64,000 bases of DNA from Candidatus Omnitrophota bacterium (GTDB taxonomy: Bacteria > Omnitrophota > Gorgyraeia > B26-G9), in assembly GCA_018817165.1 (NCBI GenBank), contig JAHITY010000118.1:6526-70525 (forward strand), in the 5' to 3' direction. Shown here in pieces: positions 7,384 to 53,350 of the stretch (positions within the stretch are counted from its first letter, which is position 1; each line of letters opens with the position of its first letter). The notes under the pieces were generated by a model. It saw nothing but the letters and a program-made list of their open reading frames with translations, was not told where the DNA came from and did not search any database. The position numbers were made by a program, and so were the translations under genes.

Positions 7384-7416
7384 AAATTAGAGGACTAATT
7401 AGGAAGGTAAATTATT

Positions 7417-7635: not shown

Positions 7636-7726
7636 AGGATATAATCGCGCAATAAGTTTATTTGTGTTGGATGCGGTCAAATAATGACTTATTAATACTT
7701 TTTCGGTATAATAAGAAAGACGTGTT

Positions 7727-7880
7727 GACACTGGGCAAGGTTTAATGGGAACGAAGCCCGTATCGGTAAAGTTTAACGGTTTAGGCTAAAACAATAAATT
7801 TTAATACGGCAGACGTTACCGCAAGACGAAACGGGCATCGTAACCTTGACCGCAACATTTTAAAGTTGTAATTGTAAACA
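7727..7880 (+). repeat. Family B structured repeat, copy 1, between atpE and atpF
   Basis: gacactgggcaaggttta..acgaagcccgtatcggtaa..~60 nt..gacgttaccgcaagacgaaacgggcatcgtaacc. Outer stem gcccgt/acgggc, inner stem cggtaa/ttaccg. Confidence 0.8.
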
Positions 7881-7935
7881 GGCCTTTGTTAGAGTTTACA
7901 TAAAAAAACTGATTTGATAACCATAGGGGTGCTAA

Positions 7936-8670: not shown

Positions 8671-10135
8671 AACTCATGATATAAAGTTTGACGTAAAGGA
8701 AGTCGGACGGGTAAAGGCTGTGCGCGAGTTTATTGTTTTAGCGGAAGATATGCCTTCCTGTGTTAATGGTCAAATTGTTGAATTTGCCAATAACTTGCGT
8801 GGGATTGTGATGGGATTTACGCAGGATGAGGTGCAGATCCTGATGCTTGGGCCAAAAGCGCAAATCCGCGCTGGCGATAAAGTATATAGTAAAGCAAAAT
8901 CTCTGTATTTGCCTGTAGGAGATGGTTTTGTCGGGAGAGTTGTTAATGCTTTGTGTGAACCAGTTGATGGGCAAGGCGAAATTAAAACTGATGATATGTT
9001 TCCGGTATTCAAAGATGCTCCGGGAATTATGGAGCGTGATACTGTTGAACGGACTTTAGAATCCGGCACCAGGATTATTGACGCGATTATGCCATTGGCA
9101 CTTGGTCAAAGGCAGCTTTTAGTCGGCGATCGGCAAACCGGTAAATCCTCGGTAACAACTGACGCTATCATAAATCAAAAAGGAAAAGATGTTATCTGCA
9201 TCTATTGTGTTATTGGAAAAACTTATTCTGGATTAGTAAAAACAATTGAATTATTTAAAGAACATAAAGTTTTTGAGTACACGATGATTGTCAGCGGGAT
9301 TGCCTCAACTTCTGTTGGCGAACAATATTTAGCGCCGTATACAGCGGCAATGATCGGCGAATATTTTATGCAACAGGGCAAAGACGTTTTAGTTGTTTTT
9401 GATGATTTAACGCGACATGCCTGGATCTATCGTCAGATCTCATTGTTGTTAAAACGCGCTCCTGGCAGAGAAGCTTATCCCGGTGATATTTTTTATACCC
9501 ATTCGCAGCTTATGGAAAGAGCCGGGCAGATGAGCAAGGCTTTGGGTGGAGGATCAATGACTTTTCTGCCGATTGTGGAAACTTTACAAGGTGATGTGGC
9601 TGGTTTTATTCCGACTAATCTTGTTTCAATGACCGATGGACAAATTTATTTTAGTTCGGCTTTATTTAATAAAGGTTTTAGACCGGCAATTGATGTTGGA
9701 CTTTCAGTATCGCGTATTGGAAATAGAGCTCAGTGGCCAGCAGTAAAAGGGCCGAGCCGTAGTTTGCGGATGGAATTTTTACAATATAAAGAGTTAGTGG
9801 CAATGACGCAGTTAAGAACTACAGAATTATCAAAAGAAGCGGAAAAAAAGTTACGGCGAGGAGAAGCAATTACCGAACTATTGATTCAAGATAAAAATAA
9901 ACCGGTATCAATGGAGCATCAGGTAGTGGATATGTACGCGCTTAATCGAGAAGTATTAGATGAATTATCGGTTGAGCAAATTAGAAAATTTAAATTAGAT
10001 TTTTATGAAAAAATTAAAGAATGGTTTCCTAATTTCTCTACAAATCTAAGGGATACTAAAATTATTGTTGATGAAAGCATTGCTAATCTTGAAGAAGCGA
10101 TTTCTTTTTATTTTAATCAGGACCAAGAAAAGTAG
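8642..10135 (+). CDS. atpA: F1 ATP synthase alpha subunit
   Basis: P-loop GDRQTGKSS. Blocks such as PGREAYPGDIFYTHSQLMERAG and LSVSRIG match alpha throughout. Confidence 0.9.
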   Translation: MSHSPEPQNKTHDIKFDVKEVGRVKAVREFIVLAEDMPSCVNGQIVEFANNLRGIVMGFTQDEVQILMLGPKAQIRAGDKVYSKAKSLYLPVGDGFVGRVVNALCEPVDGQGEIKTDDMFPVFKDAPGIMERDTVERTLESGTRIIDAIMPLALGQRQLLVGDRQTGKSSVTTDAIINQKGKDVICIYCVIGKTYSGLVKTIELFKEHKVFEYTMIVSGIASTSVGEQYLAPYTAAMIGEYFMQQGKDVLVVFDDLTRHAWIYRQISLLLKRAPGREAYPGDIFYTHSQLMERAGQMSKALGGGSMTFLPIVETLQGDVAGFIPTNLVSMTDGQIYFSSALFNKGFRPAIDVGLSVSRIGNRAQWPAVKGPSRSLRMEFLQYKELVAMTQLRTTELSKEAEKKLRRGEAITELLIQDKNKPVSMEHQVVDMYALNREVLDELSVEQIRKFKLDFYEKIKEWFPNFSTNLRDTKIIVDESIANLEEAISFYFNQDQEK

Positions 10136-10164
10136 AAGCAATTAGTAATTTGTACAATAACAAA

Positions 10165-10328
10165 GATGTGTTGATACTCGGCAAGGTTTAACGGTAACGA
10201 AGCCCGTATCGGTAATGTTAAACGGTTTAGGCTAAAAACAATAAATTTTAATACGACAGACGTTACCGTAAGCCGAAACGGGCATCGTTACCCTAATCGT
10301 AACCGTTTAAAGTTGTAAATGTAAATCT
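10165..10328 (+). repeat. Family B structured repeat, copy 2, between atpA and atpG
   Basis: About 85% identical to copy 1 over ~155 nt, including the gatgtgttgatactcggcaaggttta head. Confidence 0.8.
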
Positions 10329-10496
10329 GACTTTGTTACAGTATAAATAATTTCTAATGGCAGTTACTAAAAAGAGAAAAGATGTAAAAAATAATAGGCA
10401 AACAAGGACTGTTTTTGCTTTTGAATTTTTTGATCAGGGGTTTTTTAGGTTTTAGAAATTAGGTGTTCTGAGAGAACAGGGAACGGGGGGTTTGCG

Positions 10497-11339
10497 ATGA
10501 TTCCGATAGCACAGTTAAAAGGAGATATGGAATTTTATAAATCCTTGGGTTCCTTGATCGAAGTCTTAAAACTAGTAGCTGCCGCGCAATATCAAACTCT
10601 AGAAAAGAAGATAAAAACCTATGGTTTATATTTAGATGCTTTAAGTAATGTTTTTAGTTGGCTGGATATGCAGCAAGTAAGACATCCTTTTGTGACTAGC
10701 AGTGATAAACCAGGGGCAATTGTCGCGATAACAACTGATGCTGGTTTCTTGGGCGGTTTAAACTCTCTAGTGATGAATAAAGCATTAGAAGAAGCAAAAA
10801 TATCTGATTCTCGGATGGTAATTGTGGGGAAAAGAGGACAATTGTATGTCGAGAAACGGGAAATGGTATACGCGAATTTTCCGGGAGTTGATGATCTGAA
10901 TCGCTTGCAGCAAGCTTTAAAGTTAAGAGACTATTTAATCGAAAATGTTTTGAAAGGTAAATTCGGAAAAGTTGCTATTGTTTTTCCCCGGGCATTATCT
11001 TTTACGTCACAGCGTATCGAGGTTTTGCAAGTTTTTCCTTTTGTCTGTGAAACATCGCAGAAAATGAATAATTTACAGATTTCTGATGTTATTTTAGAAT
11101 CAAAATTTGGGGATATTGTGGAATATATGATTTATTTGTGGTTGGGGCAGAAAATATTTGAAATTTTTGGCATGGCTAGATTATCCGAACAGGCAGCAAG
11201 ATTTATGCATTTAGAAAAATGTACTGATCGGATTCAGGACTTGGATAAAAAGCTGCGATTCCAATATTTTCGGGCTAAACATGAAATTATTGATCAAAAC
11301 ATGAGAGAACTCTTTGCGGCGAGGTTATTAAATGGCTAA
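10497..11339 (+). CDS. atpG: F1 ATP synthase gamma subunit
   Basis: Position between alpha and beta, a length of 280 aa, and a C-terminal helix of the ...RAKHEIIDQNMRELFAARL type. Confidence 0.75.
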   Translation: MIPIAQLKGDMEFYKSLGSLIEVLKLVAAAQYQTLEKKIKTYGLYLDALSNVFSWLDMQQVRHPFVTSSDKPGAIVAITTDAGFLGGLNSLVMNKALEEAKISDSRMVIVGKRGQLYVEKREMVYANFPGVDDLNRLQQALKLRDYLIENVLKGKFGKVAIVFPRALSFTSQRIEVLQVFPFVCETSQKMNNLQISDVILESKFGDIVEYMIYLWLGQKIFEIFGMARLSEQAARFMHLEKCTDRIQDLDKKLRFQYFRAKHEIIDQNMRELFAARLLNG

Positions 11340-12738
11340 TAATACAGCAAAAAAAAATGTAGTAGGAATCGTTGTGGCAGTTCAAGGGCCGGTAGTCGAT
11401 GTTAAGTTTGATAACCAAGCGGATGTTCCCAATGTGTTTGATGTAATTCATACATTTACAATCGATGGCCTGAGAATAACCTTAGAAGTCGCGGAACATT
11501 CTCCCGGCAATATTGCCCGCTGTATTTCAATTAATTCAACTCAAAATTTACAAAGGAATGCCCAAGCTTTTCCCACTGGAGGAGGAATTGAAATTCCGGT
11601 TGGTGATGAGACTTATACACGATTGATGAATGTAATGGGTGAGCCGATTGACCATAAAGGTCCGATTAAAGCCACGGAAACAAGACCAATCCGCTTGGCG
11701 GAAAAAGGAACTTTTGTCAGCTTAAAAAAAGAGAGCAAAACCAAATTTGAAATAATGGAAACCGGGATTAAAATTTTTGATCTGTTGTTTCCTTTGGTAA
11801 CTGGCAGCAAGAATGGGATTCTTGGTGGCGCGGCTATGGGAAAAAGCGTGCTTACTTTGGAAATTATTCAGCATATTGTTAAGAGACATAAAGGTACTTG
11901 TGTTTTTACTGGTGCCGGAGAGCGTGTGCGTGAAGGTAATGAATTATATCATGAACTTGCCCGCCATGATATTTTAGAAAAAATGAAAATTGTATTTGGC
12001 CAAATGAATGAACCTCCGGGAGCTAGATATGAAGTCGCGATGACCGGGATTACTTTGGCGGAAAGTATTCAGCGGCAGAATAAGGATGTACTTTTGTTTA
12101 TTGATAATATTTTTCGATTTCTCCAGGCTGGTCAGGAGATATCGACACTTTTAGGCCGCGTTCCTTCAGAAACCGGATATCAGCCGACCTTGATTTCCGA
12201 GGCTGCGGAATTCCATGAACGAATTAGAACCTCTGAAGGAGGGGGAGGATCAATAACCTCAATTGAAGCTGTATATGTTCCGGCTGATGATTTAACTGAT
12301 CCCGCGGTAGTCGCGATTTTTAGCTTTCTTGATTCAGTTATTGTACTTTCCCGTGAAAAAGTGCAGCTAGGGCTTTATCCGGCGATTGATCCATTGCTTT
12401 CGTCATGCGCTAATCTTGATCCGGATATTGTGGGGAAAAGGCATTATGATGTTTCGCAACAAGTATTGCAGTTGTTTCAGCGGTATGAAGAACTGCGGAA
12501 AATAGTTTTGGTTATTGGGATCGATGAATTATCTGCTCAAGATAGGACAATTTATGAGCGGGCTCGGAAAATGCAGTTTTTTCTTACTCAACCGTTTTCA
12601 GTTGCTGAAGCTTATACCGGAAGACATGGAGAATATGTGGTTTTGGAAGATACATTATCTAGCTGCGAGCGGATAATGAGCGGTGAATTTGACCAAAAAA
12701 GAGAGGACTTGTTTTACATGATTGGGGCGCTACATTAG
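11332..12738 (+). CDS. atpD: F1 ATP synthase beta subunit. It has a divergent Walker A (GGAAMGKS) and a DELSAQD loop.
   Basis: The family signature is present throughout (GERVREGNELYHE, DELSAQDRTIYERARKMQFFLTQPFSVAE). The P-loop reads GGAAMGKS instead of the canonical GGAGVGKT. Confidence 0.9.
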   Translation: MANNTAKKNVVGIVVAVQGPVVDVKFDNQADVPNVFDVIHTFTIDGLRITLEVAEHSPGNIARCISINSTQNLQRNAQAFPTGGGIEIPVGDETYTRLMNVMGEPIDHKGPIKATETRPIRLAEKGTFVSLKKESKTKFEIMETGIKIFDLLFPLVTGSKNGILGGAAMGKSVLTLEIIQHIVKRHKGTCVFTGAGERVREGNELYHELARHDILEKMKIVFGQMNEPPGARYEVAMTGITLAESIQRQNKDVLLFIDNIFRFLQAGQEISTLLGRVPSETGYQPTLISEAAEFHERIRTSEGGGGSITSIEAVYVPADDLTDPAVVAIFSFLDSVIVLSREKVQLGLYPAIDPLLSSCANLDPDIVGKRHYDVSQQVLQLFQRYEELRKIVLVIGIDELSAQDRTIYERARKMQFFLTQPFSVAEAYTGRHGEYVVLEDTLSSCERIMSGEFDQKREDLFYMIGALH

Positions 12739-12836: not shown

Positions 12837-12865
12837 TTGACAAAATCACTGATCAATGTAATAAT
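12837..12865 (+). promoter_or_regulatory. Putative sigma70-like promoter upstream of the gspE-PilZ cluster. It has TTGACA, a 17-nt spacer, and an extended -10 TGtAATAAT.
   Basis: TTGACA at 12837-12842, AATAAT at 12860-12865, and TG at 12857-12858. Confidence 0.4.
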
Positions 12866-12974: not shown

Positions 12975-15164
12975 ATGGATAGAAAAATTGATGCGCGGGT
13001 AATCCGTTTGCTTAAAGAAACAAAGAATCTTGATGAGGAAAACCTAAAAAGCTGTTTTATTAAAGCAGAAAACAAACAAAACTCGCCGATTCCGATCATT
13101 GCTGCTAATACCCAAATCTCAGAAGTTGAATTATTGGAAATAATTGCTCAGGATTTCCGCACAGAATATGTTGATTTGCGTAATACCTCCATAGAAAAAT
13201 CCTTGATTAAAAAAGTTCCGGTTAAAATCGCTGCCTATTATAAATTCGCTCCGATGCATCTGGAAAATCGGCTTTTAACAATTGCCCGGGCTTATCCTTT
13301 GGATATCAAAATACTTGATGAGATAAGAACGCACCTTGGGTATAGTATTAATGTTGTATTAAGCACGGAGCAGGATGTTAATGAAATGCTTAAGAAATAC
13401 TATGGTTTGGGAGCTTCAACTGTAGAGAAGATAATTGCCCAAAAAGCATATGAACATGTGACCAGTAAAAAACAAGATGATCTGGTGGATGATCTGGAAG
13501 AAACCGGAGAATCAACCTCGGTAATTCAACTGGTAAATCAGATAATTCTCGAGGCTTTTACTAAACGGGCAACGGATATTCATATTGAGCCTTATCGCAG
13601 TAAATTGCGTTTGCGCTATCGGATTGACGGTATTCTTTATGATGCCAATGTCTCTCCGGAAATTAATAACTTCCTTATTCCGATATTGTCGCGAATTAAA
13701 CTTATGTCTAATCTGAATATTGTGGAAAAACGAGTTCCGCAAGACGGCAGAGCAATTGTTCAAGTTCAAGGGCAGACTCTTGATCTACGGGTTTCGTTTA
13801 TTCCTACGCCTCATGGGGAAAGTGTTGTAATTAGAATATTGCCTACTGTTATGTTATTTGGTTTGGATAAATTAGGTCTAACCTCTATTGAACTTGATTT
13901 TTTCAAGCAATTGATCAGCAAACCGCATGGAATTATTTTTGTTACCGGACCAACGGGTAGCGGAAAAACAACTACGCTGTATACTTGCTTATCCAGTATA
14001 AATACTAGTGAACGGAAAATAATTACAATTGAAGATCCGATTGAGTATGAGCTTGAAGGGATAACTCAAATCCAAATAACTCCGGAAGTTGGTCTGGATT
14101 TTTCTCGTGGATTGAGAAGCATGCTGCGCCATGACCCGGATGTAATGATGGTAGGAGAAGTAAGGGATTTGGAAACAGCGGAAATAGCGATAAGAGTTGC
14201 TTTGACCGGACATCTAGTTTTTTCTACATTGCATACTAATGATGCTGCTAGCGGAATAACTCGTTTAATTGATATAGGCCTTGAGCCTTATTTAGTAGCT
14301 TCCAGTGTGGACGCGTTTATTGCGCAGCGTTTGCTGCGGCTGAATTGTCCGCATTGTAAAGCAGAAGATATTCAGGTAGTCCCAGGATTAAAAGCGCAAA
14401 TATTAAAAGAACTTGGTAAAAATGATGATGAAGAAATTAAAATTTATCGGAGCAAAGGCTGCCAAGCTTGTAATTTTACTGGTTTCTATGGTAGAACCGC
14501 GATACATGAAATATTAGTACTGAATGAGAAATTAAAAGCACTTACAGCAAAAAAAGCATCAAGCGATGAAATTAAAAAATGCGCGGTGGCTGATGGAATG
14601 AAGACATTACGCCAGAGTGGCTGGATCAAAGTCTTGGAAGGTCAAACAACCGCGGATGAAGTCTTAAGAGTTACTCAGGCTGATGTTTTACCGGAAAATA
14701 TGATATCGGTTGAGCAAGCTACATATGATTTTAAAAAAGATGAAAAGCCTTCTAAAATGCTTAAATTGGAGATGCCTGAAAAAATAGAACAAACAATAAA
14801 GTCTCATGATCAGCGTATTCACGAGCGAATAGAAAACAAGTTATATTTGCATTATAAAATGTTTAAAACAAAAACAAAAGATTCCGGAGAGCTGGAATAT
14901 GAGCCGGAGCTTATCGGAGTTACTAAGAATATTAGTGCCGGAGGAGTATTGCTGAATTCTGTGGAATATATTTCAAAAGGGACGATTCTGGATGTTAATA
15001 TGGAAATGCCTAATAATGAGAGAAAAATAGAATGTTTAGCAAGGGTTATTCGCTGTACAGAGGTTGTTCCTGATAAAAATTATGAAATAGCGATTTGTTT
15101 TTTAGATTTAGCAAGTGCCGAAAGAAGCAGACTTAATCGCTATATAAACAGTGTAAGCTCATAG
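12975..15164 (+). CDS. gspE: GspE/PilB-family secretion ATPase with a C-terminal PilZ (c-di-GMP receptor) domain
   Basis: GspII_E N-terminal domains, Walker [11 protein letters not shown], and the tetracysteine motif CPHCK...CQACNFTGFYGR. The last ~130 aa carry RIHER (RxxxR) followed by NISAGG (NxSxGG), typical of PilZ. Confidence 0.85.
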   Translation: MDRKIDARVIRLLKETKNLDEENLKSCFIKAENKQNSPIPIIAANTQISEVELLEIIAQDFRTEYVDLRNTSIEKSLIKKVPVKIAAYYKFAPMHLENRLLTIARAYPLDIKILDEIRTHLGYSINVVLSTEQDVNEMLKKYYGLGASTVEKIIAQKAYEHVTSKKQDDLVDDLEETGESTSVIQLVNQIILEAFTKRATDIHIEPYRSKLRLRYRIDGILYDANVSPEINNFLIPILSRIKLMSNLNIVEKRVPQDGRAIVQVQGQTLDLRVSFIPTPHGESVVIRILPTVMLFGLDKLGLTSIELDFFKQLISKPHGIIFVTGPTGSGKTTTLYTCLSSINTSERKIITIEDPIEYELEGITQIQITPEVGLDFSRGLRSMLRHDPDVMMVGEVRDLETAEIAIRVALTGHLVFSTLHTNDAASGITRLIDIGLEPYLVASSVDAFIAQRLLRLNCPHCKAEDIQVVPGLKAQILKELGKNDDEEIKIYRSKGCQACNFTGFYGRTAIHEILVLNEKLKALTAKKASSDEIKKCAVADGMKTLRQSGWIKVLEGQTTADEVLRVTQADVLPENMISVEQATYDFKKDEKPSKMLKLEMPEKIEQTIKSHDQRIHERIENKLYLHYKMFKTKTKDSGELEYEPELIGVTKNISAGGVLLNSVEYISKGTILDVNMEMPNNERKIECLARVIRCTEVVPDKNYEIAICFLDLASAERSRLNRYINSVSS

Positions 15165-15257
15165 CAGCGATTTTGAACAAAAGAAGATCAGGTTATTGCG
15201 CTGGAAAAACTGGCTTAGCCGACATGCAAGTGAGTGTAATGCATAGGATGGGGCTTT

Positions 15258-15746
15258 ATGGGTGTGTATAAATATCAGGCAACAAAGAATATTTCTGGGG
15301 TTACCATTGAATCAATAATCTATGCTGATACCATTGAAGAAGCTTTTGAGAAAATAGTAGAAATGGGCTATTCACCGGAAAAAATAGAAGAGATTAATGC
15401 TCCTGATCGCAGGGTAAATGAGCGATTAGAAATAGGGTTAAAGTTTGTTTATAGCCGGTTTAAAACCGGACAGGCTAAAGGGAGAACAAGAGAAGCTTTT
15501 ACTCAAAATATTAGTTCAGGGGGAATGCTTTTTCAATCAGAAATATCTTTTGATATCGGAACGATTTTGGATGTTGAATTGTATTTACCGGAAGGGCTAG
15601 ATGATATTAAGTGTTTGTGCCGAGTAATCCGAAGCGATCAAATAAATCAACAGGCAAATCAGTATAATATAGCAGCGTGTTTCTTAGATCTGCCTAATTC
15701 TGAGCGTTCTAGAATAAATGATTATATAACACAGCAGAAAAGATAA
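15258..15746 (+). CDS. Small two-module protein: a GspF/PilC N-terminal-domain look-alike (~48 aa) fused to a canonical PilZ domain
   Basis: The N-terminus MGVYKYQATKNISGVTIESIIYADTIEEAFEKIVEMGYSPEKIEE aligns with the N-terminus of the next gene, MGLFKYKAKKGPNKIIKSVINASSRQEAIDRISEMGYLPIFIEE. The C-terminal half has RRVNER (RRxxxR) followed by NISSGG and is closely paralogous to the PilZ tail of the upstream ATPase (GTILDV, CFLDL..ERSR.N.YI). Confidence 0.6.
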   Translation: MGVYKYQATKNISGVTIESIIYADTIEEAFEKIVEMGYSPEKIEEINAPDRRVNERLEIGLKFVYSRFKTGQAKGRTREAFTQNISSGGMLFQSEISFDIGTILDVELYLPEGLDDIKCLCRVIRSDQINQQANQYNIAACFLDLPNSERSRINDYITQQKR

Positions 15747-15748: not shown

Positions 15749-16972
15749 ATGGGATTATTTAAATATAAAGCAAAAAAAGGTCCGAATAAGATTATCAAGT
15801 CAGTTATCAATGCATCATCTCGGCAAGAGGCGATTGACAGAATAAGCGAGATGGGATATCTTCCAATTTTCATCGAAGAGGTGCATGATGCTGGGGGTGC
15901 TATTTTTTCTAATAAAAAATTAAATAAAGTAAAATTAAAATCAAAGCAAGTAACTGTTTTTACCCGTCAATTGGCAATATTGCTGCGTTCAGGAGTCCCG
16001 ATTCTCAAAGGATTATTGATCTTGGCAGACCAAGCATTACATGCTGATTTTAAAGCTATCTTAAATACAATTAATGCTCAGATAAAAGATGGCAATTCAC
16101 TTTCCGCAGCATTATCAGCTTATCCTAAGATCTTTTCCCCGCTTTATGTTGCCTTGGTGCGTGCAGGGGAAGATAGCGGCACATTAGAAGTTTCTTTGCT
16201 GCGGATTGCCGAATACAGACAAAAACAAGAACAAATTTTTACTAATATTAAGACTGCGCTTACCTATCCGCTTTTAATGGCTTTTGTTGGTACAGGGACA
16301 ATTATATTTATGCTGACTTTTGTTATGCCAAGATTATTGGGGATTTTTGCCAGGTTAGGTCAGGAATTGCCGCTGCCGACAAAAATATTGATCAGTATCA
16401 GCAATTTTTTGACTCAAGGCTGGGTGTGGCTGATTATTGCGGGTATTGGTTTAAGCTTAGTATTTTATTTTAAAAATAATACTCCATCAAAAAGACGAAG
16501 GATATTTATTAGTCAGCTAAAACTTAAATTTCCGGTTTTCGGTGATGTTTTTCTGAAAGCAGAGTTAGCTAGATTTAGCCGAACTCTTGAACTTTTGCTG
16601 GACAGCGGGGTCCATGTGCTGGCTGCTTTACAAAGAAGTATTCCGATTGTGGAAAATGAAATAATGCAGGATGAACTAAAAAAAGCTTATAAAGCAATTG
16701 AGCAAGGTGAATCTTTTGGGTCAACGCTAAATCAATCGATTGTTTTCCCTAAATTCATGGTTAATCTCATAAGCGTAGGGGAAGAATCCGGAAATCTTGA
16801 AGAGGCACTTAAAGAATTGGCATTTACTTATGAAGAAGAAACTGATGAAGCAGTAAAAGTCATGACAAATCTTTTGGAGCCGATGATGATATTAATTATG
16901 GGAATTGTTGTTGGTTTTATAATAGTGTCGATGCTTTTGCCCGTATTTCAATTAAATGTAATGGTTAATTAA
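15749..16972 (+). CDS. gspF: GspF/PilC inner-membrane platform protein
   Basis: 407 aa with two T2SSF repeats, TM segments, and the characteristic N-terminal domain. Confidence 0.85.
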   Translation: MGLFKYKAKKGPNKIIKSVINASSRQEAIDRISEMGYLPIFIEEVHDAGGAIFSNKKLNKVKLKSKQVTVFTRQLAILLRSGVPILKGLLILADQALHADFKAILNTINAQIKDGNSLSAALSAYPKIFSPLYVALVRAGEDSGTLEVSLLRIAEYRQKQEQIFTNIKTALTYPLLMAFVGTGTIIFMLTFVMPRLLGIFARLGQELPLPTKILISISNFLTQGWVWLIIAGIGLSLVFYFKNNTPSKRRRIFISQLKLKFPVFGDVFLKAELARFSRTLELLLDSGVHVLAALQRSIPIVENEIMQDELKKAYKAIEQGESFGSTLNQSIVFPKFMVNLISVGEESGNLEEALKELAFTYEEETDEAVKVMTNLLEPMMILIMGIVVGFIIVSMLLPVFQLNVMVN

Positions 16973-16973: not shown

Positions 16974-17837
16974 TTGAAAATAAAAAAAACAGTTACTTAT
17001 CTTTTATTTTTTTTATTGATATTTTGCTATAGGCTGAGTTTCGCTGAACAGGGATGGACTCAGCTAAATTCAGATCATTTTATTGTCTATTATCAAGATA
17101 GCGATAAAAATTTTGCTGCTGATGTAGCAAGAAAAGCCGAGGAATATTATAATTCTATTGCCGACAACTTAGGATATGTGCGTTATTCGAATTTTTGGAA
17201 ATGGGATAAAAGAGTTAAAATTTATATTTATCCGGATCATGCGTCCTATCTTTTAGCGACTAATCAGCAGAGCTGGTCGCATGGAGTCGCGGATTATTTT
17301 AAAAAAGAAATAATTAGTTATGCCTGGGGAAAAGATTTTTTAAAATCGCTTTTACCTCATGAATTGGCACATCTAATATTCAGAGATTTTGTTGGCTTTA
17401 AGTCGGATATTCCTTTGTGGCTAGATGAAGGAGTTGCCCAATGGGAGGAAACGGAGTTAAAAGCCCAAAGACTTTCTCTGGTCAGGCAGCAAGCAAGCCA
17501 AAATATAATATTGCCAATTAGGACGATGATTGACCTGGACATAAGAACAATCGAAACTGACCAGCAGATAAAGCTGGAAGGTATGGCCTTGGATAATGGG
17601 CAAATCCCGATTCTGGAAATGGATGGAAGGGCTCTGGTTAATATTTATTATTTACAGGCTTTTTCTTTGGTAGGATTTTTAATGGAAAGATATGGGGCAG
17701 AAAGCTTTGTTGTTTTTAGTCGCCAGTTGCGAGATGGTAAGACAATTAGTGATGCTTTGAAATTTGCTTATCCACAGCAATTGCGGAGTATTGAACAACT
17801 GGAAAAACAATGGAAACAATATTTATTGAACGCTTAA
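16974..17837 (+). CDS. Secreted HExxH zinc-metallopeptidase-like protein of the peptidase MA-like fold. It has a TTG start.
   Basis: N-terminal signal peptide, then HELAHLIF (HExxH) with EGVAQWEE downstream. It is embedded between gspF and gspG. Confidence 0.45.
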   Translation: MKIKKTVTYLLFFLLIFCYRLSFAEQGWTQLNSDHFIVYYQDSDKNFAADVARKAEEYYNSIADNLGYVRYSNFWKWDKRVKIYIYPDHASYLLATNQQSWSHGVADYFKKEIISYAWGKDFLKSLLPHELAHLIFRDFVGFKSDIPLWLDEGVAQWEETELKAQRLSLVRQQASQNIILPIRTMIDLDIRTIETDQQIKLEGMALDNGQIPILEMDGRALVNIYYLQAFSLVGFLMERYGAESFVVFSRQLRDGKTISDALKFAYPQQLRSIEQLEKQWKQYLLNA

Positions 17838-17867: not shown

Positions 17868-18272
17868 ATGAAGCGAAAACAAGGTTTTACTTTGATTGAA
17901 TTAATGCTGGTGGTTATTATTATAAGCGCATTAGCAGCTATGGTTTTGCCCCGGCTTGCCGGTCGTTCGGAACAGGCAAGAACCGCTGCCGCGAATGCTG
18001 ATATTAATGCGAATATTGCTACAGGACTTAAGCTTTATGAACTGGATAATGGTCAATTCCCCAGCACTTCGGAAGGCTTGCAAGCGTTGTTAATCAAGCC
18101 GGCTACTGCTAATACTTGGAACGGTCCGTATTTGGAAAAAGAGCCGATTGATCCATGGGGTAGAAAATATGAGTATAAATCTCCCGGACAGAATCGCCCT
18201 CAGGATTATGATCTTTTTTCTTTAGGCCGGGATGCTCAGCCGAGCGAAGATGATATAAATAATTGGAATTAA
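17868..18272 (+). CDS. gspG: Major T2SS pseudopilin GspG
   Basis: Prepilin leader with GFTLIELM. GPYLEKEPIDPWGRKYEYKSPG...DYDLFSLGRDAQP matches the GspG signature. Confidence 0.8.
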   Translation: MKRKQGFTLIELMLVVIIISALAAMVLPRLAGRSEQARTAAANADINANIATGLKLYELDNGQFPSTSEGLQALLIKPATANTWNGPYLEKEPIDPWGRKYEYKSPGQNRPQDYDLFSLGRDAQPSEDDINNWN

Positions 18273-18274
18273 AA

Positions 18275-18757
18275 ATGTTGTTTTTCTCTAAGCCAGGCTT
18301 AAATCAGTTGTTTAAGTTTAAATCGCTTAAAATAAGTTTCAGCCAAAATAAAGGGTTTACCTTGGTTGAGGTTCTTATCTCAGCGGTTATTTTGGCAGTG
18401 GGATTGGTAGTTATTTTTGAAGTATTTTTGACTTCATTAGATATCGTCAGCTTGTTTGATAATCGAATGAACGCGCAAATGTATTTGGATGAAAAAATCT
18501 GGCAGTTGCAGAGCAGTCTAGACCAGCAAAGCGGGCTGTTTATTCCCAGCAAACAGTCGGGCAAGGTGGTTTTAGGGCAAAAAGAATTTAATTGGCAGCT
18601 GGACTTGGAATTGGTGGATTTAACTCAGGAGTTGTTTAAAGTTAATGGGCAAATGAACTGGACAGAAGGTAAAAAAAATAGAAGCAGTAAGCGCCAAACA
18701 GTAGTTAAAAGCTATTTCAGCAATGCTAATCCTTGGAAAGATGAGGATAAGCAATGA
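18275..18757 (+). CDS. Minor pseudopilin (GspH/I-like). The ORF track starts at 18263 with TTG.
   Basis: A prepilin-type N-terminal methylation motif, KGFTLVEVLISAVIL, follows a ~25-aa leader. Confidence 0.55.
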   Translation: MLFFSKPGLNQLFKFKSLKISFSQNKGFTLVEVLISAVILAVGLVVIFEVFLTSLDIVSLFDNRMNAQMYLDEKIWQLQSSLDQQSGLFIPSKQSGKVVLGQKEFNWQLDLELVDLTQELFKVNGQMNWTEGKKNRSSKRQTVVKSYFSNANPWKDEDKQ

Positions 18758-19377
18758 TAAAAAAAAGATTATATTCCGGATTTACGTTTGTCGAAATGAC
18801 TTTAGCTACGGCAATGGTTGGCGTAATAGCGATTGCTTTGTACGCAATGATTGCTAATGGATTAAAAGTTTGGGAGATCGTTAATCAAGAATCTCCGCAG
18901 ATGGATGCCAGTTTGCTTTTTGAAAAAATAAGCATGGATTTAGCCAATGGGGTTTGCTTGGAGGGAAGTGATTTTATTGGCAATGAAAAGAGTTTTTCTT
19001 TTTCCTGCATTAGTAAAACATTTATAGCGGAGAATGGATTTAATCAAGGGGTGGGGCGAGTAAACTATGCCTATGACCCGGGAATGAAAGAAATTAATCG
19101 ACAATATGTGGATTATGAACAATTATTCGCAAAAGAGCAGCCGGAAGCGCGAAATTTAATCAGCAATATCAATAATATTCTATTAAGCTATTATTTTTTT
19201 GATGAGCAAAAAAAAGCTTTTTTATGGAGCAATGTCTGGCCCCCGGAAGCTTATGCTAAGCAGGATAAACATGCTTGGCCTTTAGCAGTTAGAGTTTCCA
19301 TAGTTTTTGAAATCCGAGGCCAGATAATTCAAAAAGGAAAAACATTTAATCTGCCGATCGGAGCAATTGAACTCTGA
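18754..19377 (+). CDS. Minor pseudopilin (GspI/J-like)
   Basis: N-terminal SGFTFVEMTLATAMV prepilin motif. Confidence 0.55.
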   Translation: MIKKRLYSGFTFVEMTLATAMVGVIAIALYAMIANGLKVWEIVNQESPQMDASLLFEKISMDLANGVCLEGSDFIGNEKSFSFSCISKTFIAENGFNQGVGRVNYAYDPGMKEINRQYVDYEQLFAKEQPEARNLISNINNILLSYYFFDEQKKAFLWSNVWPPEAYAKQDKHAWPLAVRVSIVFEIRGQIIQKGKTFNLPIGAIEL

Positions 19378-19396
19378 TTTAATATTAATAAGGTCT

Positions 19397-20509
19397 ATGA
19401 AAATAAATAAAATTATAATAAAGAGAAAAGGAAGTGTTTTAGTTCTTGTGCTTTGGGCGCTTGGACTTTTAAGTGTTTTTGGTTTATACTTAGGGCTGGG
19501 CGCGAGAAGTAAAATTGATTTTTTAAGTAGAATGGAAACGCGCAGTAAAACATTGCAGATAGCTGAAGCCGGAGTAAAACAGGCTATCGCGGCAATTGGG
19601 AATATTGATAAAAAAAAATTATATCTTTATCTTAATGATATTTGTTCAACCAATAATCAATTGTTTTCAGGAGTTGTATTCGATGATGGAGTTGTTCAGC
19701 TCGGAGTTGAATACCCAGCGAATGATTATTCGAATGGGCAAAGTGACGAACAAAATATTATCTATGGGGTTTCTGATGAACAGTCGAAACTGAATATCAA
19801 TACTGCCGAACGTAAAGAATTGCTTGCTTTATTAGTTGAATCCGCTAAAATTGACTCTGATATTGCTGATCAGATAGCTAGTTCAATTATTGATTGGCGG
19901 GATGCGGATTCTCTGTCATTGGCAAACGGCGCGGAAGATAATTATTATCATGCACTGAAAAACTCTTATGAATGCAAGGATTATCAGTTTGAATCAATAG
20001 AAGAGTTGCGTTATGTCAAGGGAATGGATTATAATATATTTAAGAAAATTCAATCGTATATAACGGTGTATGGTTCAGGTTTAGTTAATATAAATACTGC
20101 GTCAAGAAATGTATTAAAAGCCTTGGGATTAAGTGATAAATTAATCGATAAAATATTGGTTTACCGCTGCGGGCAAGATGAAATAGCGGCAAACGGCGAT
20201 GATGCTGTTTTTGAAAATATCAGTTCTGTTGTTGCCAAGTTGTCTCAATCTGAGGCAGTTTCAGCCAGTGAAGTTGCCCAGTTAAGTAATCTAACTGCTT
20301 CGGGGCGGCTGACTGTTTTTTCAAATATATTTTTGATTCAAAGTCAGGCAAACTTGAAAAATAAGCAGGATATTTGCCAGATTAAATGTTTTTTTGAAAA
20401 GAACCTAGATGAAAATTATAAAAAAGCAGGTTTTATTTTAGGCTGGAGAATGAATTATCTTAAATTATCACCGGATAATCAAGTAGAAGGGGATTATGGA
20501 ACTGAGTAA
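19397..20509 (+). CDS. gspK: GspK-like minor pseudopilin. The ORF track starts at 19367 with TTG.
   Basis: N-terminal hydrophobic GSVLVLVLWALGLLSV. The C-terminal helix-hairpin-helix LVNINTASRNVLKALGLSDKLIDKILVYR is typical of GspK. Confidence 0.6.
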   Translation: MKINKIIIKRKGSVLVLVLWALGLLSVFGLYLGLGARSKIDFLSRMETRSKTLQIAEAGVKQAIAAIGNIDKKKLYLYLNDICSTNNQLFSGVVFDDGVVQLGVEYPANDYSNGQSDEQNIIYGVSDEQSKLNINTAERKELLALLVESAKIDSDIADQIASSIIDWRDADSLSLANGAEDNYYHALKNSYECKDYQFESIEELRYVKGMDYNIFKKIQSYITVYGSGLVNINTASRNVLKALGLSDKLIDKILVYRCGQDEIAANGDDAVFENISSVVAKLSQSEAVSASEVAQLSNLTASGRLTVFSNIFLIQSQANLKNKQDICQIKCFFEKNLDENYKKAGFILGWRMNYLKLSPDNQVEGDYGTE

Positions 20510-21935
20510 ACACAAAGATATAATTGGTATAGATTTTTCAGCAGATCAGCTTAGTATCGGCCTGATGAAAACTTTAAACAAAGAGAAAACAATTATTAAT
20601 CTAGCGCAATATTCTATTGCTGGTGTTAGTGAGGCTGAAATAGCTCAGATGATTATTAAGGCTTTTAAGGATTTTAATATTAAAAATCCTTATGTGGTCA
20701 ATGTTGTCCCCTTACATCTTACGATAACAAAAAATTTAGAAATACCATCTTTGGATGTGAAAGAGATAAAAGAAATCATTGATCTGCAGTCGGGCAGACA
20801 GACGCCTTATGCCCGAGAAGAGATTATTGTTGATTATATAAATATTGGAACTTATCGGCAGAGCTATACAAAAATTTTATTGGTAATTGTGACTAGAGCT
20901 GCGATTAAAAAGCAGTTTGATGTTATGGAAAAAGCCGGGTTGAAAATTGAAAAAATAGTTTTTGCTCCGGAAGGTGTGAGCCGGGCATGCTACAGCCAGA
21001 TTAAAAAAGAAGTAAAAGACTCTCCAGTGGTTATCGTTCATATTGATTCAGATTTTACAGATTTTATTGTTAGCCTTAAAGGCGTGCCTATTTTTACAAG
21101 AAATATTCCGATCGGAGTTAAACATATTTCTGCTGATCCGGATAAATCGGAAATAAAGTTTATTGAAGAATTAAAAAACTCCTTGGAGACTTATCAGTCA
21201 GAAGATATTGATAAAACTCCTCAACTGCTAATATTGACCGGGGCTACGGAAAAGATCGAACAATTAGAAAAGTTAGTTATTGGCGAAATCCATATTCCGA
21301 TTCAGAGCATGCCATATTTTGGGTTAATTCCCTTGTCAGCGGATTTAGCGAAGATTCCGACAATTACAAAAAAGATTTCTTTCTTTAATATCGCGGCATC
21401 CGCTTTGTTTGAAAAAAATATGAAAGTGAGTCTTATCCCGGAAGAAATAAAATTAAAGCGATCTTTTGAAGAACGAGCGCAGGAACTGATTAAGATGGGC
21501 ATTTATATAATATGCTTGATGCTTATTGCCGGAAGTTTTTTTGTGACGGAGCTTTATTTTAAAGGTCAATATCTTAAGAATCTTAAAAAGAAAAATTCAA
21601 TTACTTACGAAGAAGCTAAGATATTAGAAAAAGCTATGGAAAAAATGCGGATTGTTAAGCATTATATGGCAAATAGAGGGTATAGTTTAGAAGTTGTCGC
21701 GGCAATTTACGATATATTACCAAAAGAAATTATGCTGACAAATATAAAGATGGATACTGAGAAAAAACTGCATTTAAAAGGTACTGCCCGGGCGATGTCT
21801 AATGTGTTCACATTTGTCAGTGCTTTGGAGGCATCTGAGTATTTTAGTAATGTTAAGACTAATTATACTACTTCGCGTAAAAAAGATGATGAAGATTGGG
21901 CTGATTTTGGGATTTCCTGTGTTTTAGCAAAATAA
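20496..21935 (+). CDS. gspL: GspL-like (PilM/PilN-type) assembly protein: a cytoplasmic actin-like domain, a TM segment, and a periplasmic domain
   Basis: N-terminal IIGIDFSADQLSIGL actin-like start, a central TM segment MGIYIICLMLIAGSFFV, and its position after gspK. Confidence 0.5.
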   Translation: MELSKHKDIIGIDFSADQLSIGLMKTLNKEKTIINLAQYSIAGVSEAEIAQMIIKAFKDFNIKNPYVVNVVPLHLTITKNLEIPSLDVKEIKEIIDLQSGRQTPYAREEIIVDYINIGTYRQSYTKILLVIVTRAAIKKQFDVMEKAGLKIEKIVFAPEGVSRACYSQIKKEVKDSPVVIVHIDSDFTDFIVSLKGVPIFTRNIPIGVKHISADPDKSEIKFIEELKNSLETYQSEDIDKTPQLLILTGATEKIEQLEKLVIGEIHIPIQSMPYFGLIPLSADLAKIPTITKKISFFNIAASALFEKNMKVSLIPEEIKLKRSFEERAQELIKMGIYIICLMLIAGSFFVTELYFKGQYLKNLKKKNSITYEEAKILEKAMEKMRIVKHYMANRGYSLEVVAAIYDILPKEIMLTNIKMDTEKKLHLKGTARAMSNVFTFVSALEASEYFSNVKTNYTTSRKKDDEDWADFGISCVLAK

Positions 21936-21964
21936 TTTAATAAAAATATATTTAGGGATCACAT

Positions 21965-22504
21965 ATGCTGCAAATTATTAGTAAACTTTCAAAAAGAGAA
22001 AAAATGGTTTTATCCGTGTCAATAGCTTTTGTATTTTTAGCTCTCTTAGACCGGGCGATACTTCATCCGATTATTGATAAAATGAAAAGCTTTGAGCAGG
22101 AAATAAAAGCGACTGAATATGAAATGACTAAGAATGTTAAAATTCTTGGGCAAAGCGCTCGCATAGAAAGGGAAGAAAAAAAGTATTCATCATATATAAA
22201 AGAAGCGGGTTCGGAAGAGGAAGAAACCGCTGGATTGTTGCGCATTGTGGAAAACCTTGCTAGTACCACTAATGTATATTTAGTTGATTTGAAGCCAGGC
22301 GGCGTAGAAATTGCTGGGAATGTAAAGAAATTTGTGATTAATGTTAGTTGTGAAGCGCAAATGCAGAAAATACTTAGCTTTATGTATGAAATAGAAAGTT
22401 CCGATGTTTTAATGCATATTGCAGCTTTTAGCATGAATCCAAAATCTAAGGACTCAGATATAAACCGTTGCGAATTTCTATTGAATAAAATAGTGATCCA
22501 ATAA
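21965..22504 (+). CDS. gspM: GspM/PilO-like bitopic inner-membrane protein
   Basis: 179 aa with one N-terminal TM helix, then a coiled coil and an alpha/beta periplasmic part. Position after the gspL-like gene. Confidence 0.4.
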   Translation: MLQIISKLSKREKMVLSVSIAFVFLALLDRAILHPIIDKMKSFEQEIKATEYEMTKNVKILGQSARIEREEKKYSSYIKEAGSEEEETAGLLRIVENLASTTNVYLVDLKPGGVEIAGNVKKFVINVSCEAQMQKILSFMYEIESSDVLMHIAAFSMNPKSKDSDINRCEFLLNKIVIQ

Positions 22505-22788: not shown

Positions 22789-22825
22789 AATTTGTTAAAT
22801 ATTGAACATAAGGGGAGGATACATA

Positions 22826-24010: not shown

Positions 24011-24019
24011 GGTATTAAA

Positions 24020-24478: not shown

Positions 24479-24501
24479 GTAGTAAACGGATTAAAGGCCT
24501 A

Positions 24502-24610: not shown

Positions 24611-24622
24611 AAGGAGAATATA

Positions 24623-30143: not shown

Positions 30144-31394
30144 GTGAAAATGGAAAAATTTAATTATGTAGCTGTAAAAAAAGATGGTTCGGATATTAAG
30201 GGGATTGTCGAAGCAGTAAATTTAAATGATGCTTTGACTAAAATTAAGGCAATGGGATATTATCCCTCTCAAGTTTTGCCTGATAAGAAAAATAATAAAA
30301 AAGACTCGATTAGTAATTCATTTTTTGCGCGATTAAATTTTCTTAATTTATCTGGTCATAAAATTAAAGAGATGGATCTGGTGATTTTTACTAGACAGCT
30401 TTCAGTTTTACTTGATGCGGGCTTATCTTTAGTTCGTGCTTTGCACGCTTTGCAAAAACAATCCCGGTTTAAATCGATGAATGAAATTATTTCCGATATT
30501 GTTGATATGATTGAATCAGGCAGGGCATTTAGTGATGCTTTGGCGCATTATCCCGTGACTTTTTCCAAAGTTTATATAAATATAGTTAAAGCTGGAGAGA
30601 CCGGGGGAGCGATGGATCAGGTGCTGCGACGTTTGGCTGATTTTTTAGAAAGAAATTTAAAATTACGGCAAAGAATTAATGCTGCCTTGATTTATCCTAG
30701 TCTTGTTCTTGCTGTATCGGTTTCGATTTTAATTCTTGTAATTGTTTTTGTTATTCCTAAATTTATGGAAATGTTTCAGGGTACGGGTATAGCCTTACCT
30801 TTTTTAACTTTAAGCATTATGTCTTTAAGTGATTTTATGTTAACTAAATGGTATGTGTTTATAGCGGGGATAGTTGGATTAATAGCCGGCTATAAAATGT
30901 TGTTGAGTAATTTTACGTTTCGTAAGTTTATTGATAATTTTAAATTAAACATTCCAGTTTTAGGGGGATTGACTAAAAAGGTTATTGCTGCGCGCTTTTC
31001 CCGCACTCTTTCAACTTTATTGTCAGGCGGAGTTCCCATATTGCGCGCTTTAGAATTAACCAAGGAAGTTATTGATAATGAGGTAGTGGCAACTGCGATT
31101 GCTGATGTCTCCGATCATGTTAGGGAGGGTGGCTTTATTTCTAAAGTGCTGGAACATAATTCGGCATTCCCTCAGTTGATGGTTAATATGATTTCTGTTG
31201 GTGAAGAAAGCGGTGCCTTGGATAAGATGCTGTCTAAAGTTGCTGATACTTATGAAGAAGAGGTTGATGTTACGGCTAATACCTTAACATCACTTTTGGA
31301 ACCTTTTCTGGTTATTATCATGGGCGGAGTTGTTTTGCTAATAGTTTTAGCGATGTTTTTACCTTTAATGACGCTTATTCAGTCACTAACTTAA
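30144..31394 (+). CDS. pilC: PilC/GspF platform protein (second copy)
   Basis: 416 aa with two T2SSF repeats and TM segments. Confidence 0.85.
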   Translation: MKMEKFNYVAVKKDGSDIKGIVEAVNLNDALTKIKAMGYYPSQVLPDKKNNKKDSISNSFFARLNFLNLSGHKIKEMDLVIFTRQLSVLLDAGLSLVRALHALQKQSRFKSMNEIISDIVDMIESGRAFSDALAHYPVTFSKVYINIVKAGETGGAMDQVLRRLADFLERNLKLRQRINAALIYPSLVLAVSVSILILVIVFVIPKFMEMFQGTGIALPFLTLSIMSLSDFMLTKWYVFIAGIVGLIAGYKMLLSNFTFRKFIDNFKLNIPVLGGLTKKVIAARFSRTLSTLLSGGVPILRALELTKEVIDNEVVATAIADVSDHVREGGFISKVLEHNSAFPQLMVNMISVGEESGALDKMLSKVADTYEEEVDVTANTLTSLLEPFLVIIMGGVVLLIVLAMFLPLMTLIQSLT

Positions 31395-53280: not shown

Positions 53281-53350
53281 ATTGTTTGATTTTATTGGTT
53301 AAACAAGTATCTTTAACTAGTAAATATAATATTTGCAATGCTTTAGCTTT

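What the first reader, a model, noticed from the sequence alone, without database searches (positions are those of the whole stretch)
15258..15746. A stand-alone PilC/GspF N-terminal domain mimic fused to a PilZ c-di-GMP receptor, sitting between GspE-PilZ and GspF
The first ~48 residues of this 162-aa protein align residue-for-residue with the N-terminus of the platform protein encoded 2 nt downstream (MG[VL][YF]KY[QK]A.K......I.S.I.A.....A...I.EMGY.P..IEE). The second GspF/PilC copy at 30144 shows the same N-terminal pattern. The rest of the protein is a textbook PilZ: RRVNER gives RRxxxR and QNISSGG gives NxSxGG. That PilZ is a close paralog of the PilZ domain fused to the C-terminus of the upstream GspE ATPase; the two share GTILDV, CLxRVIR and CFLDLxxxERSRxNxYI. 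In other systems the platform N-domain is the part that contacts the GspE/PilB ATPase. A soluble copy of that interface fused to a c-di-GMP sensor could therefore act as a second-messenger-controlled clutch or decoy between the ATPase and the platform. I do not know of a described regulator with this architecture.
Basis: partly seen in the sequence, partly recalled or inferred. Interest (0 to 1): 0.82.

Follow-up and report, generated by a model that had tools for sequence, protein, structure and literature searches.

The report
Soluble platform N-domain fused to PilZ
A small, conserved gene in uncultured Omnitrophota bacteria fuses a copy of the secretion/pilus platform protein's tiny N-terminal domain to a c-di-GMP-sensing PilZ domain; it probably arose by duplication across the boundary of its two neighbour genes, and it gives a natural handle on a platform domain whose function is still unknown.

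Summary

It is not a one-off. At least 11 clusters (50% identity) among 1.84 billion representatives share the architecture, and all named ones are Candidatus Omnitrophota. The gene always lies between gspE-PilZ and gspF, in 1-3 tandem copies. dN/dS is about 0.1 in both halves. One operon has gspE-PilZ directly followed by gspF, which looks ancestral. A tandem duplication spanning that junction explains the chimera.

The copied piece is the small, dispensable N-domain, whose partner is unknown. The ATPase is modelled to contact Cyto1/Cyto2, not this domain.

My best reading is a c-di-GMP-gated soluble mimic or competitor of the platform N-domain. This mechanism is inferred, not shown. I found no description of this architecture in the literature. 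I rate it a new variant of a known kind (PilZ effectors), of moderate to high interest.

The parts
12837..12865 (+). Promoter-like site upstream of gspE (TTGACA-17-AATAAT with an extended -10 TG)
   Evidence: 11 of 12 matches. This is a consensus match only, and site counts in the region are not enriched over shuffles. No terminator-like site lies between gspE, the 162-aa gene and gspF on the + strand.
12975..15164 (+). GspE/PilB-type ATPase (729 aa) with a Pfam MshEN-region hit, a T2SSE ATPase core and a C-terminal PilZ
   Evidence: T2SSE 428 bits, MshEN 55 bits, PilZ 38 bits at residues 645-725, and TIGR02533 at 565 bits. The MshEN c-di-GMP 24-residue motif is absent in both strict and relaxed forms.
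14799..15164 (+). C-terminal PilZ module of GspE (residues ~609-729; RIHER at 614, NISAGG at 652). Closest relative of the PilZ in the 162-aa protein.
   Evidence: 39% identity over 150 aa, E 3e-26..
15165..15257 (.). 93-nt spacer. In relatives L001 and L002 this position holds an extra FN-PilZ-PilZ gene (300-311 aa).
   Evidence: tblastn finds no remnant of that gene in the window.
15258..15746 (+). The finding: the FN-PilZ protein, 162 aa
15258..15401 (+). FN module (residues 1-48). A bbab fold homologous to the GspF/PilC N-domain.
15408..15425 (+). RRVNER (residues 51-56), the RRxxxR c-di-GMP switch motif. It lies in the interdomain linker directly after FN strand beta3.
   Evidence: R52 is invariant and R56 is >=90% conserved in the family. 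The linker, residues 49-58, has pLDDT <50.
15402..15743 (+). PilZ module (residues 49-162): beta-barrel plus C-terminal helix. NISSGG (residues 84-89) lies at 15507-15524.
15749..16972 (+). GspF platform protein (407 aa), complete, with its own FN domain at residues 1-47 (15749-15889)
   Evidence: T2SSF 202 bits in 2 repeats; TIGR02120 361 bits over positions 1-401 of 401.
16974..17837 (+). Peptidase_MA_2 protein. Present directly after gspF in every FN-PilZ locus whose sequence extends past gspF.
17868..22504 (+). Rest of the T2SS-like operon: GspG pseudopilin, three minor pseudopilins (one N_methyl-only, one J-like, one K-like), a PilM-PilN fusion and a GspM-like protein
30144..31394 (+). 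Second platform protein (PilC of a T4P-like cluster). Its N-domain shows the same pattern more distantly.

Best explanation
What it is (shown): a real, selected accessory gene of a T2SS-like type IV filament operon, so far seen only in Candidatus Omnitrophota. It encodes a soluble two-module protein. The first module is a copy of the bbab N-domain of the platform protein GspF (called FN here). It is joined to a canonical PilZ domain through a disordered loop that carries the RRxxxR motif.

How it arose (inferred, well supported): in an ancestral gspE-PilZ | gspF arrangement, a segment running from the start of the PilZ-coding part of gspE to the end of the FN-coding part of gspF was duplicated in tandem. 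That yields gspE-PilZ | FN~PilZ | FN-gspF, which is the observed order. Later whole-gene duplications gave 2-3 copies in some lineages, plus an FN-PilZ-PilZ paralog.

How it most likely works (inferred): the protein is probably co-expressed with gspE and gspF, and likely translationally coupled to gspF. The PilZ module binds c-di-GMP. The RRxxxR loop is the interdomain linker, so ligand binding would clamp FN against the PilZ barrel, as in the two-domain PilZ effectors YcgR and MotI. This would switch whether FN's surface is available. Free FN would occupy the still unidentified site where GspF's own flexibly tethered N-domain docks. In PulF the N-domain is dispensable but needed for full efficiency, so the expected effect is to tune pseudopilus assembly or secretion with c-di-GMP level rather than switch it on or off.
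For: Gene and modules:
- ORF with a start codon conserved across orthologs.
- FN homology: BLASTP E 3e-9, no shuffle of 2000 reaches the score, hhalign probability 99.4% and E 1e-21.
- FN fold is bbab at pLDDT 89, with the same PDB neighbours (T7 Gp2, YkzG) as published for the PulF N-domain (PMC10790770).

Selection and conservation:
- dN/dS is 0.06-0.10 for FN and 0.12-0.25 for PilZ between orthologs.
- At least 11 clusters at 50% identity match end to end in an exhaustive search of 1.84e9 representatives. All named members are Omnitrophota.
- The position between gspE-PilZ and gspF is conserved in 7 further distinct loci from independent assemblies, with copy number 1-3.
- Spacers to gspF range from -14 to +35 nt, and no terminator-like site lies in between.

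Origin:
- X's FN is closest to the adjacent GspF FN and to the paralog Y. X's PilZ is closest to the GspE PilZ.
- The best non-family hits in the exhaustive search are GspE-PilZ C-termini.
- L010 shows gspE-PilZ directly followed by gspF.

Context:
- GspE lacks the MshEN c-di-GMP motif, so PilZ domains are the only recognisable c-di-GMP sensors of this machine.
Against:
- The partner of the GspF N-domain is unknown in any system (PMC10790770), so 'competition' has no defined target.
- The FN-PilZ family has fixed E18 (16/16) and Y22 (13/16) on one face of beta2, where platform proteins vary. This suggests specialisation rather than pure mimicry.
- Interdomain geometry in the AF2 model is uncertain: pTM is 0.57 and three of the five models have pLDDT ~54.
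- No GGDEF, EAL or HD-GYP gene lies in the window, so c-di-GMP metabolism of this genome is untested.
- The duplication is ancient (about 45% and 39-43% identity to the parent modules), so no DNA-level junction evidence survives. The 'PEKIE' similarity at the junction is not conserved in other genomes.
- The NJ trees rest on 50-120 residues and are only indicative.
Confidence: 0.5

Rival explanations
1. Adaptor or bridge ('Rosetta stone') model. The two fused modules are natural partners. The PilZ at the ATPase C-terminus docks on the platform's FN domain in a c-di-GMP-dependent way. FN-PilZ proteins would then insert into or cap that contact: FN binds the GspE PilZ and PilZ binds the GspF FN. 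With 1-3 copies they could form a chain between motor and platform, or block both ends.
For: - The chimera joins exactly the modules that flank the gspE|gspF junction.
- Arrays of 1-3 copies sit in that same position.
- The family always co-occurs with a PilZ-bearing GspE in the loci examined.
- Family-specific invariant surface residues E18 and Y22 on FN could form a PilZ or c-di-GMP contact.
Against: - FN is universal in GspF/PilC, whereas ATPase-PilZ fusions are rare, so FN's general partner cannot be PilZ.
- The fusion is fully explained by the mechanics of a junction-spanning duplication, without any prior interaction.
- AF2 does not place the two domains confidently against each other (pTM 0.57).
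- There are no interaction data.
Confidence: 0.2
2. The PilZ module is the effector and FN is only a localisation tag. FN delivers the protein to the base of the machine. There the c-di-GMP-loaded PilZ acts on the ATPase, as Xanthomonas PilZ binds and stabilises the PilB N1D, or as MotI acts on MotA.
For: - PilZ proteins that bind PilB and are required for piliation are known (PMC11656802).
- The top structural match is the motor-clutch protein MotI.
- The PilZ half evolves faster than FN, but both are constrained.
Against: - GspE already carries its own closely related PilZ in cis, which makes a second PilZ acting in trans on the same ATPase less obviously useful.
- Nothing shows that FN localises anything.
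Confidence: 0.15
3. Functionless by-product of a segmental duplication: a decaying chimeric ORF, or an assembly or annotation artefact such as a frameshifted pilC.
For: The architecture is exactly what a junction-spanning duplication produces by accident. The PulF N-domain itself is dispensable.
Against: - dN/dS is about 0.1 in both halves.
- The ligand-binding motifs are conserved.
- The gene is retained across lineages that have diverged to below 50% identity, and in independent assemblies.
- Copy number has expanded further.
- The downstream GspF is intact.
Confidence: 0.03

Closest known systems
N-domain of GspF/PilC platform proteins (PulF residues 1-54; Pfam PF28597 T2SSF_N)
   Same: Homologous sequence (45-50% identity to the adjacent GspF; hhalign E 1e-21). 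Same predicted bbab fold and the same PDB neighbours (Gp2, YkzG). Same position at the very N-terminus of the polypeptide.
   Different: Here it is not followed by Cyto1, the transmembrane segments and Cyto2, but by a PilZ domain, so the protein is soluble. The family has its own invariant E18 and Y22. The Pfam T2SSF_N model is recorded (weakly) for the FN-PilZ-PilZ paralog but not for the 162-aa orthologs in the precomputed annotations.
YcgR / MotI (DgrA) two-domain PilZ effectors (c-di-GMP-dependent brake or clutch of the flagellar motor)
   Different: The N-terminal module is a 48-residue bbab copy of a machine component, not a PilZN/YcgR barrel (no PF07317 or PF12945 hit). The target is a type IV filament or T2SS-like machine rather than the flagellar stator or rotor.
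Xanthomonas/Pseudomonas PilZ (XAC1133/PA2960) with PilB N1D and FimX
   Same: A small PilZ-fold protein encoded with, and acting on, the type IV filament assembly ATPase module.
   Different: Those PilZ proteins have lost RxxxR and DxSxxG, do not bind c-di-GMP, and are single-domain. Here the motifs are intact and an FN module is attached.
MshE/MshEN-type ATPases (c-di-GMP binding by the N-terminus of T2SS/T4P ATPases)
   Same: Direct c-di-GMP input into a GspE/PilB-type motor.
   Different: The window's GspE lacks the 24-residue MshEN motif. It carries a C-terminal PilZ instead, and a second PilZ is supplied in trans on the FN-PilZ protein.

Membership tests
PilZ domain (PF07238), canonical c-di-GMP-binding type | Profile match above the curated threshold | tested here: met
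   46 bits against a cutoff of 22.5, residues 51-158, profile positions 2-101 of 102.
PilZ domain (PF07238), canonical c-di-GMP-binding type | RxxxR motif in the N-terminal loop | tested here: met
   RRVNER at residues 51-56. R52 is invariant and R56 is >=90% conserved in 15 family members.
PilZ domain (PF07238), canonical c-di-GMP-binding type | [D/N]xSxxG motif | tested here: met
   NISSGG at residues 84-89. N84, S86, G88 and G89 are conserved across the family.
PilZ domain (PF07238), canonical c-di-GMP-binding type | Six-stranded beta-barrel with a C-terminal helix | tested here: met
PilZ domain (PF07238), canonical c-di-GMP-binding type | Actual binding of c-di-GMP | not testable with these tools
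   Needs DRaCALA, ITC or MST on purified protein.
GspF/PilC N-domain (T2SSF_N, PF28597) | Sequence homology to the first ~50 residues of platform proteins | tested here: met
   BLASTP E 3e-9 to the adjacent GspF and 2e-4 to the second PilC. hhalign probability 99.4%, E 9.7e-22.
GspF/PilC N-domain (T2SSF_N, PF28597) | bbab fold | tested here: met
GspF/PilC N-domain (T2SSF_N, PF28597) | Match to the Pfam PF28597 model itself | tested here: inconclusive
   The local Pfam copy lacks PF28597. Precomputed annotations give 'T2SSF_N (weak)' for the FN-PilZ-PilZ paralog in L002 and nothing for the 162-aa orthologs. Genuine GspFs themselves often score only 'weak' or 'faint'.
GspF/PilC platform protein (T2SSF, PF00482; TIGR02120) | Two T2SSF repeats with three transmembrane segments | tested here: not met
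   The 162-aa protein has no T2SSF hit at E<=1. It is not a platform protein and not a fragment of one.
YcgR-like PilZ proteins | N-terminal PilZN (PF07317) or PilZNR (PF12945) domain | tested here: not met
   Only PF07238 was found. The N-terminal module is FN.
Non-binding 'type II' PilZ (XAC1133/PA2960) | Loss of the RxxxR and DxSxxG motifs, with an incomplete barrel | tested here: not met

The most novel reading that the evidence does not exclude
The chimera acts as a natural 'Rosetta stone' for the unsolved function of the platform N-domain. Under this reading FN is a docking module for the motor ATPase's C-terminal region. In Omnitrophota that region is a PilZ, so motor-platform coupling is gated by c-di-GMP. 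The 1-3 FN-PilZ proteins would then work as c-di-GMP-dependent caps or chain links between motor and platform. That would be a regulatory principle (a soluble copy of a machine's own coupling interface) not described for any type IV filament system.
Probability: 0.15. Interest if true: 0.8.

Novelty: new variant of a known kind. Interest (0 to 1): 0.58.

Why it matters
The ~50-residue N-domain of GspF/PilC is conserved across T2SS and T4P systems. Even so, its partner and role are unknown, and the PulF study explicitly calls for identifying its interactors. Here evolution has detached that domain, fused it to a second-messenger sensor and kept it under purifying selection next to the motor and platform genes. 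That is strong indirect evidence that the N-domain has a defined, titratable binding site in the machine. It also supplies a soluble natural reagent for finding that site. In addition, it shows c-di-GMP input into a T2SS-like machine through PilZ domains (in cis on the ATPase and in trans on FN-PilZ) instead of MshEN. Finally, it is a clean example of a new regulator born from a duplication that spans a gene boundary.

Tried and rejected
- The afdb50 fold library was unavailable.
- The search for related loci with the diverse family alignments A2 and A3 failed for lack of a conserved 7-10-column stretch. With the close alignment A1 it returned only two Omnitrophota species representatives, so the taxonomic breadth rests.
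- An FN-only profile search of the 5.8-billion-protein index returned only a 47-aa fragment of a Y-type protein. It therefore gave no information on other FN architectures.
- A PDB sequence search with the whole protein found nothing significant.
- Rfam found no riboswitch or other RNA family in the window.
- Literature searches for PilZ+GspF and for 'T2SSF_N' returned no papers.
- I considered the 'PEKIEE/PEKIEQ' similarity between the protein and the GspE linker as a duplication-junction signature. I rejected it because other GspE orthologs lack it.
- I considered a frameshifted pilC or an assembly chimera and rejected both.
- I considered c-di-GMP sensing by the GspE MshEN region, but the motif is absent.
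- Multimer modelling could not be run, because the tool predicts monomers of window sequences only.

Full report
**1. The observation**

The window is a piece of a Candidatus Omnitrophota MAG; the exact protein is in NCBI as 'MAG: PilZ domain-containing protein'. ORF 15258..15746 (+) encodes 162 aa. It starts 93 nt after the stop of a 729-aa GspE-type ATPase and ends 2 nt before the ATG of a 407-aa GspF.

- Pfam finds one domain, PilZ (46 bits against a cutoff of 22.5, residues 51-158). No T2SSF domain is found.
- The first 47 residues align with residues 1-46 of the downstream GspF at 45% identity with one single-residue gap (BLASTP E 3e-9). None of 2000 shuffles of the N-terminal 50 residues reaches the observed score (97 against 28 +/- 4.5).
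- The second platform protein in the window (PilC at 30144) matches more weakly (E 2e-4).
- The PilZ part is 39% identical over 150 aa to the C-terminal PilZ of the upstream GspE (E 3e-26). RRVNER and NISSGG are present.

Every factual statement in the finding therefore holds.

**2. What the N-terminal module is**

A profile of 16 family N-termini against a profile of 7 platform-protein N-termini gives hhalign probability 99.4% and E 9.7e-22 over 46 columns.

AF2 models the whole protein at pLDDT 80. It shows a beta-beta-alpha-beta module (E2-10, E16-23, H26-35, E38-46), a disordered linker at residues 49-58 that contains RRxxxR, and a beta-barrel with a C-terminal helix. Modelled alone, residues 1-48 reach pLDDT 89 with the same topology.

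**3. It is a family, not an oddity**

The word-index search found eight full-length relatives at 66-80% identity, all 161-162 aa. An exhaustive HMM search of 1.84 billion cluster representatives found 11 clusters at 50% identity that match end to end: P0004, P0010-P0015, P0017, P0018, P0021 and P0108. One of them, P0012, is a 300-aa FN-PilZ-PilZ form.

The next-best hits are mainly C-terminal fragments of GspE-PilZ fusions or plain PilZ proteins. All members that carry a source name are Candidatus Omnitrophota, annotated only as 'PilZ domain-containing protein'.

Gene order is conserved in independent assemblies: atpA/G/D, then GspE (MshEN hit + T2SSE + PilZ), then FN-PilZ gene(s), then GspF, Peptidase_MA_2, GspG, minor pseudopilins and PilMN. 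Copy number varies:

| Copies | Loci |
|---|---|
| 1 | window, L003, L004, L008 |
| 2 (FN-PilZ-PilZ plus FN-PilZ) | L001, L002 |
| 3 (all with FN and PilZ) | L006, L007 |
| 0 | L010, where GspE-PilZ is followed directly by GspF |

Between orthologs, dN/dS is 0.06-0.10 for the FN part and 0.12-0.25 for the PilZ part. For comparison, GspF as a whole gives 0.07 and its own N-domain 0.09; dS is near saturation, so these values are approximate. Across 15 diverse members, the fold-core residues of FN (Y6, A8, A23, A29, G37) and the ligand motifs of PilZ (R52, R56, N84, S86, G88, G89) are conserved. Only P0108 is degenerate.

**4. Origin**

X's FN is most similar to the adjacent GspF N-domain (45-50%) and to the FN of the paralog Y (47-55%). 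X's PilZ is most similar to the PilZ of GspE (43%).

The order E-PilZ | FN-PilZ | FN-F is exactly what a tandem duplication produces when the duplicated segment begins at the PilZ-coding part of gspE and ends after the FN-coding part of gspF. L010 provides the predicted pre-duplication arrangement.

NJ trees are based on short domains and are indicative only. They place the GspE PilZs in one clade and the GspF N-domains in another. L006 a/b/c group together in both trees, so that expansion is a later whole-gene triplication. The event is old, and no DNA-level junction evidence survives.

**5. Mechanism**

Three points from the literature and the PDB bear on it:

- In PulF the small N-domain (residues 1-54) is peripheral, linked by a flexible loop and dispensable for function, though it is needed for full efficiency. 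It shows no co-evolution with the rest of the protein and has no known partner. PulE N2D is modelled to contact Cyto1 and Cyto2.
- A Neisseria pilG N-domain mutant is suppressed by deleting pilT.
- The solved 'N-terminal domains' of PilC, EpsF and XcpS are Cyto1, residues ~65-169.

So the protein is not a copy of a known ATPase interface.

What can be said is the following. The operon's ATPase lacks the MshEN c-di-GMP motif, so PilZ domains are the only recognisable second-messenger inputs. In FN-PilZ the RRxxxR switch loop is the interdomain linker, the same arrangement as in YcgR and MotI. In those proteins, ligand binding closes the two domains and creates or hides a binding surface (established knowledge of that family; MotI is the best structural match).

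I therefore favour a c-di-GMP-gated soluble mimic or competitor of the platform N-domain that tunes assembly efficiency.

Several points count against a pure decoy. The family has fixed E18 and Y22 on one face of beta2, where platform proteins vary. The docking site is unknown. No c-di-GMP turnover genes lie in the window.

The rival readings are:

- a bridge or cap model, in which the ATPase-borne PilZ and FN are partners;
- FN as a mere localisation tag for a PilZ effector;
- a functionless duplication remnant, which is effectively excluded by the conservation data.

**6. Comparison with known systems, and novelty**

The protein is a bona fide canonical PilZ protein: four defining features were tested and met, and ligand binding is untestable here. 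It also carries a bona fide platform N-domain. It is not a platform protein, not a YcgR-type protein and not a non-binding PilZ of the XAC1133 type.

Full-text searches for PilZ with GspF and for T2SSF_N returned no papers. Two PilZ census papers list no fusion to GspF/PilC or GspE/PilB components. A review of PilB cofactors covers PilZ, FimX, CpiA and phage inhibitors, and the passages I searched show nothing resembling this architecture.

Pfam does have a T2SSF_N model (PF28597). It weakly flags the FN-PilZ-PilZ paralog in precomputed annotations. The pieces are therefore known and the combination is not. I classify the finding as a new variant of a known kind (PilZ-domain c-di-GMP effectors).

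Its interest is that it argues for a defined, titratable binding site for a conserved machine domain whose function is unknown. The limits are that the organisms are uncultured and the mechanism is inferred.

Noticed in passing
L002:5087-5989; L001:1424-2359 (the window equivalent would be 15165-15257): Close relatives carry an additional 300-311 aa gene between gspE-PilZ and the 162-aa gene. It encodes FN followed by two PilZ domains. The window has only a 93-nt spacer there and no remnant of that gene.
   Followed up: partly
L006:3960-5507 (also L007:1098-2645): Three tandem FN-PilZ genes (165, 161 and 168 aa) lie between gspE-PilZ and gspF. They group together in both domain trees, so this is a lineage-specific triplication.
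   Followed up: partly
window 12975-15164: GspE carries a C-terminal PilZ and has a Pfam MshEN-region hit, but lacks the 24-residue c-di-GMP-binding MshEN motif. GspE-PilZ fusions are fairly diverse in metagenomes; many C-terminal fragments appeared among the exhaustive-search hits. I found no description of them in the PilZ census papers I searched.
   Followed up: partly
window 16974-17837: A Peptidase_MA_2 (zinc metalloprotease-like, HExxH) gene directly follows gspF in every FN-PilZ locus whose sequence extends past gspF. It is absent from L010, the locus without FN-PilZ. Its role in the operon is unknown.
   Followed up: no
window 7045-12738 and all related loci: The F-type ATP synthase operon (epsilon-like, b/delta fusion, alpha, gamma, beta) lies immediately upstream of gspE. 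This synteny is conserved across divergent Omnitrophota, including L010.
   Followed up: no
window 22802-25387: The glycolytic genes pgk (22802-24010) and tpi (24599-25387) sit between the T2SS-like operon and a second PilB/PilT/PilB/PilC/PilMN/PilO/secretin cluster. A lone GspG-like pseudopilin gene (24020-24478) lies between them.
   Followed up: no
window 24-6464: A giant 2146-aa ORF has only weak Ig-like and repeat hits (Kre9_KNH, Reelin subrepeat B, GldM third domain). It is probably a large surface protein of the kind common in this phylum (my own general knowledge, not checked here).
   Followed up: no
window 49651-56221: A 1209-aa ORF has only a partial CofD-like hit. It is followed by a 930-aa protein with HD_4 and RelA_SpoT domains, an unusually long (p)ppGpp synthetase/hydrolase homolog.
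   Followed up: no
L010:5513-6693: In the locus that lacks FN-PilZ, gspF is called as two ORFs (208 and 167 aa). This may be a frameshift, a pseudogene or an assembly error.
   Followed up: no
window 15309-15323 (residues E18-Y22 of the 162-aa protein): E18 (16/16) and Y22 (13/16) are fixed in the FN modules of the FN-PilZ family but vary in true platform N-domains. By strand periodicity they lie on the same face of strand beta2. They could form a family-specific contact surface.
   Followed up: partly
window 28409-30112: The PilB of the second cluster has one match to the relaxed MshEN c-di-GMP motif, at residue 38 (PLGKILVNMGIITEGQLLNALGIQ). The other two ATPases have none.
   Followed up: no
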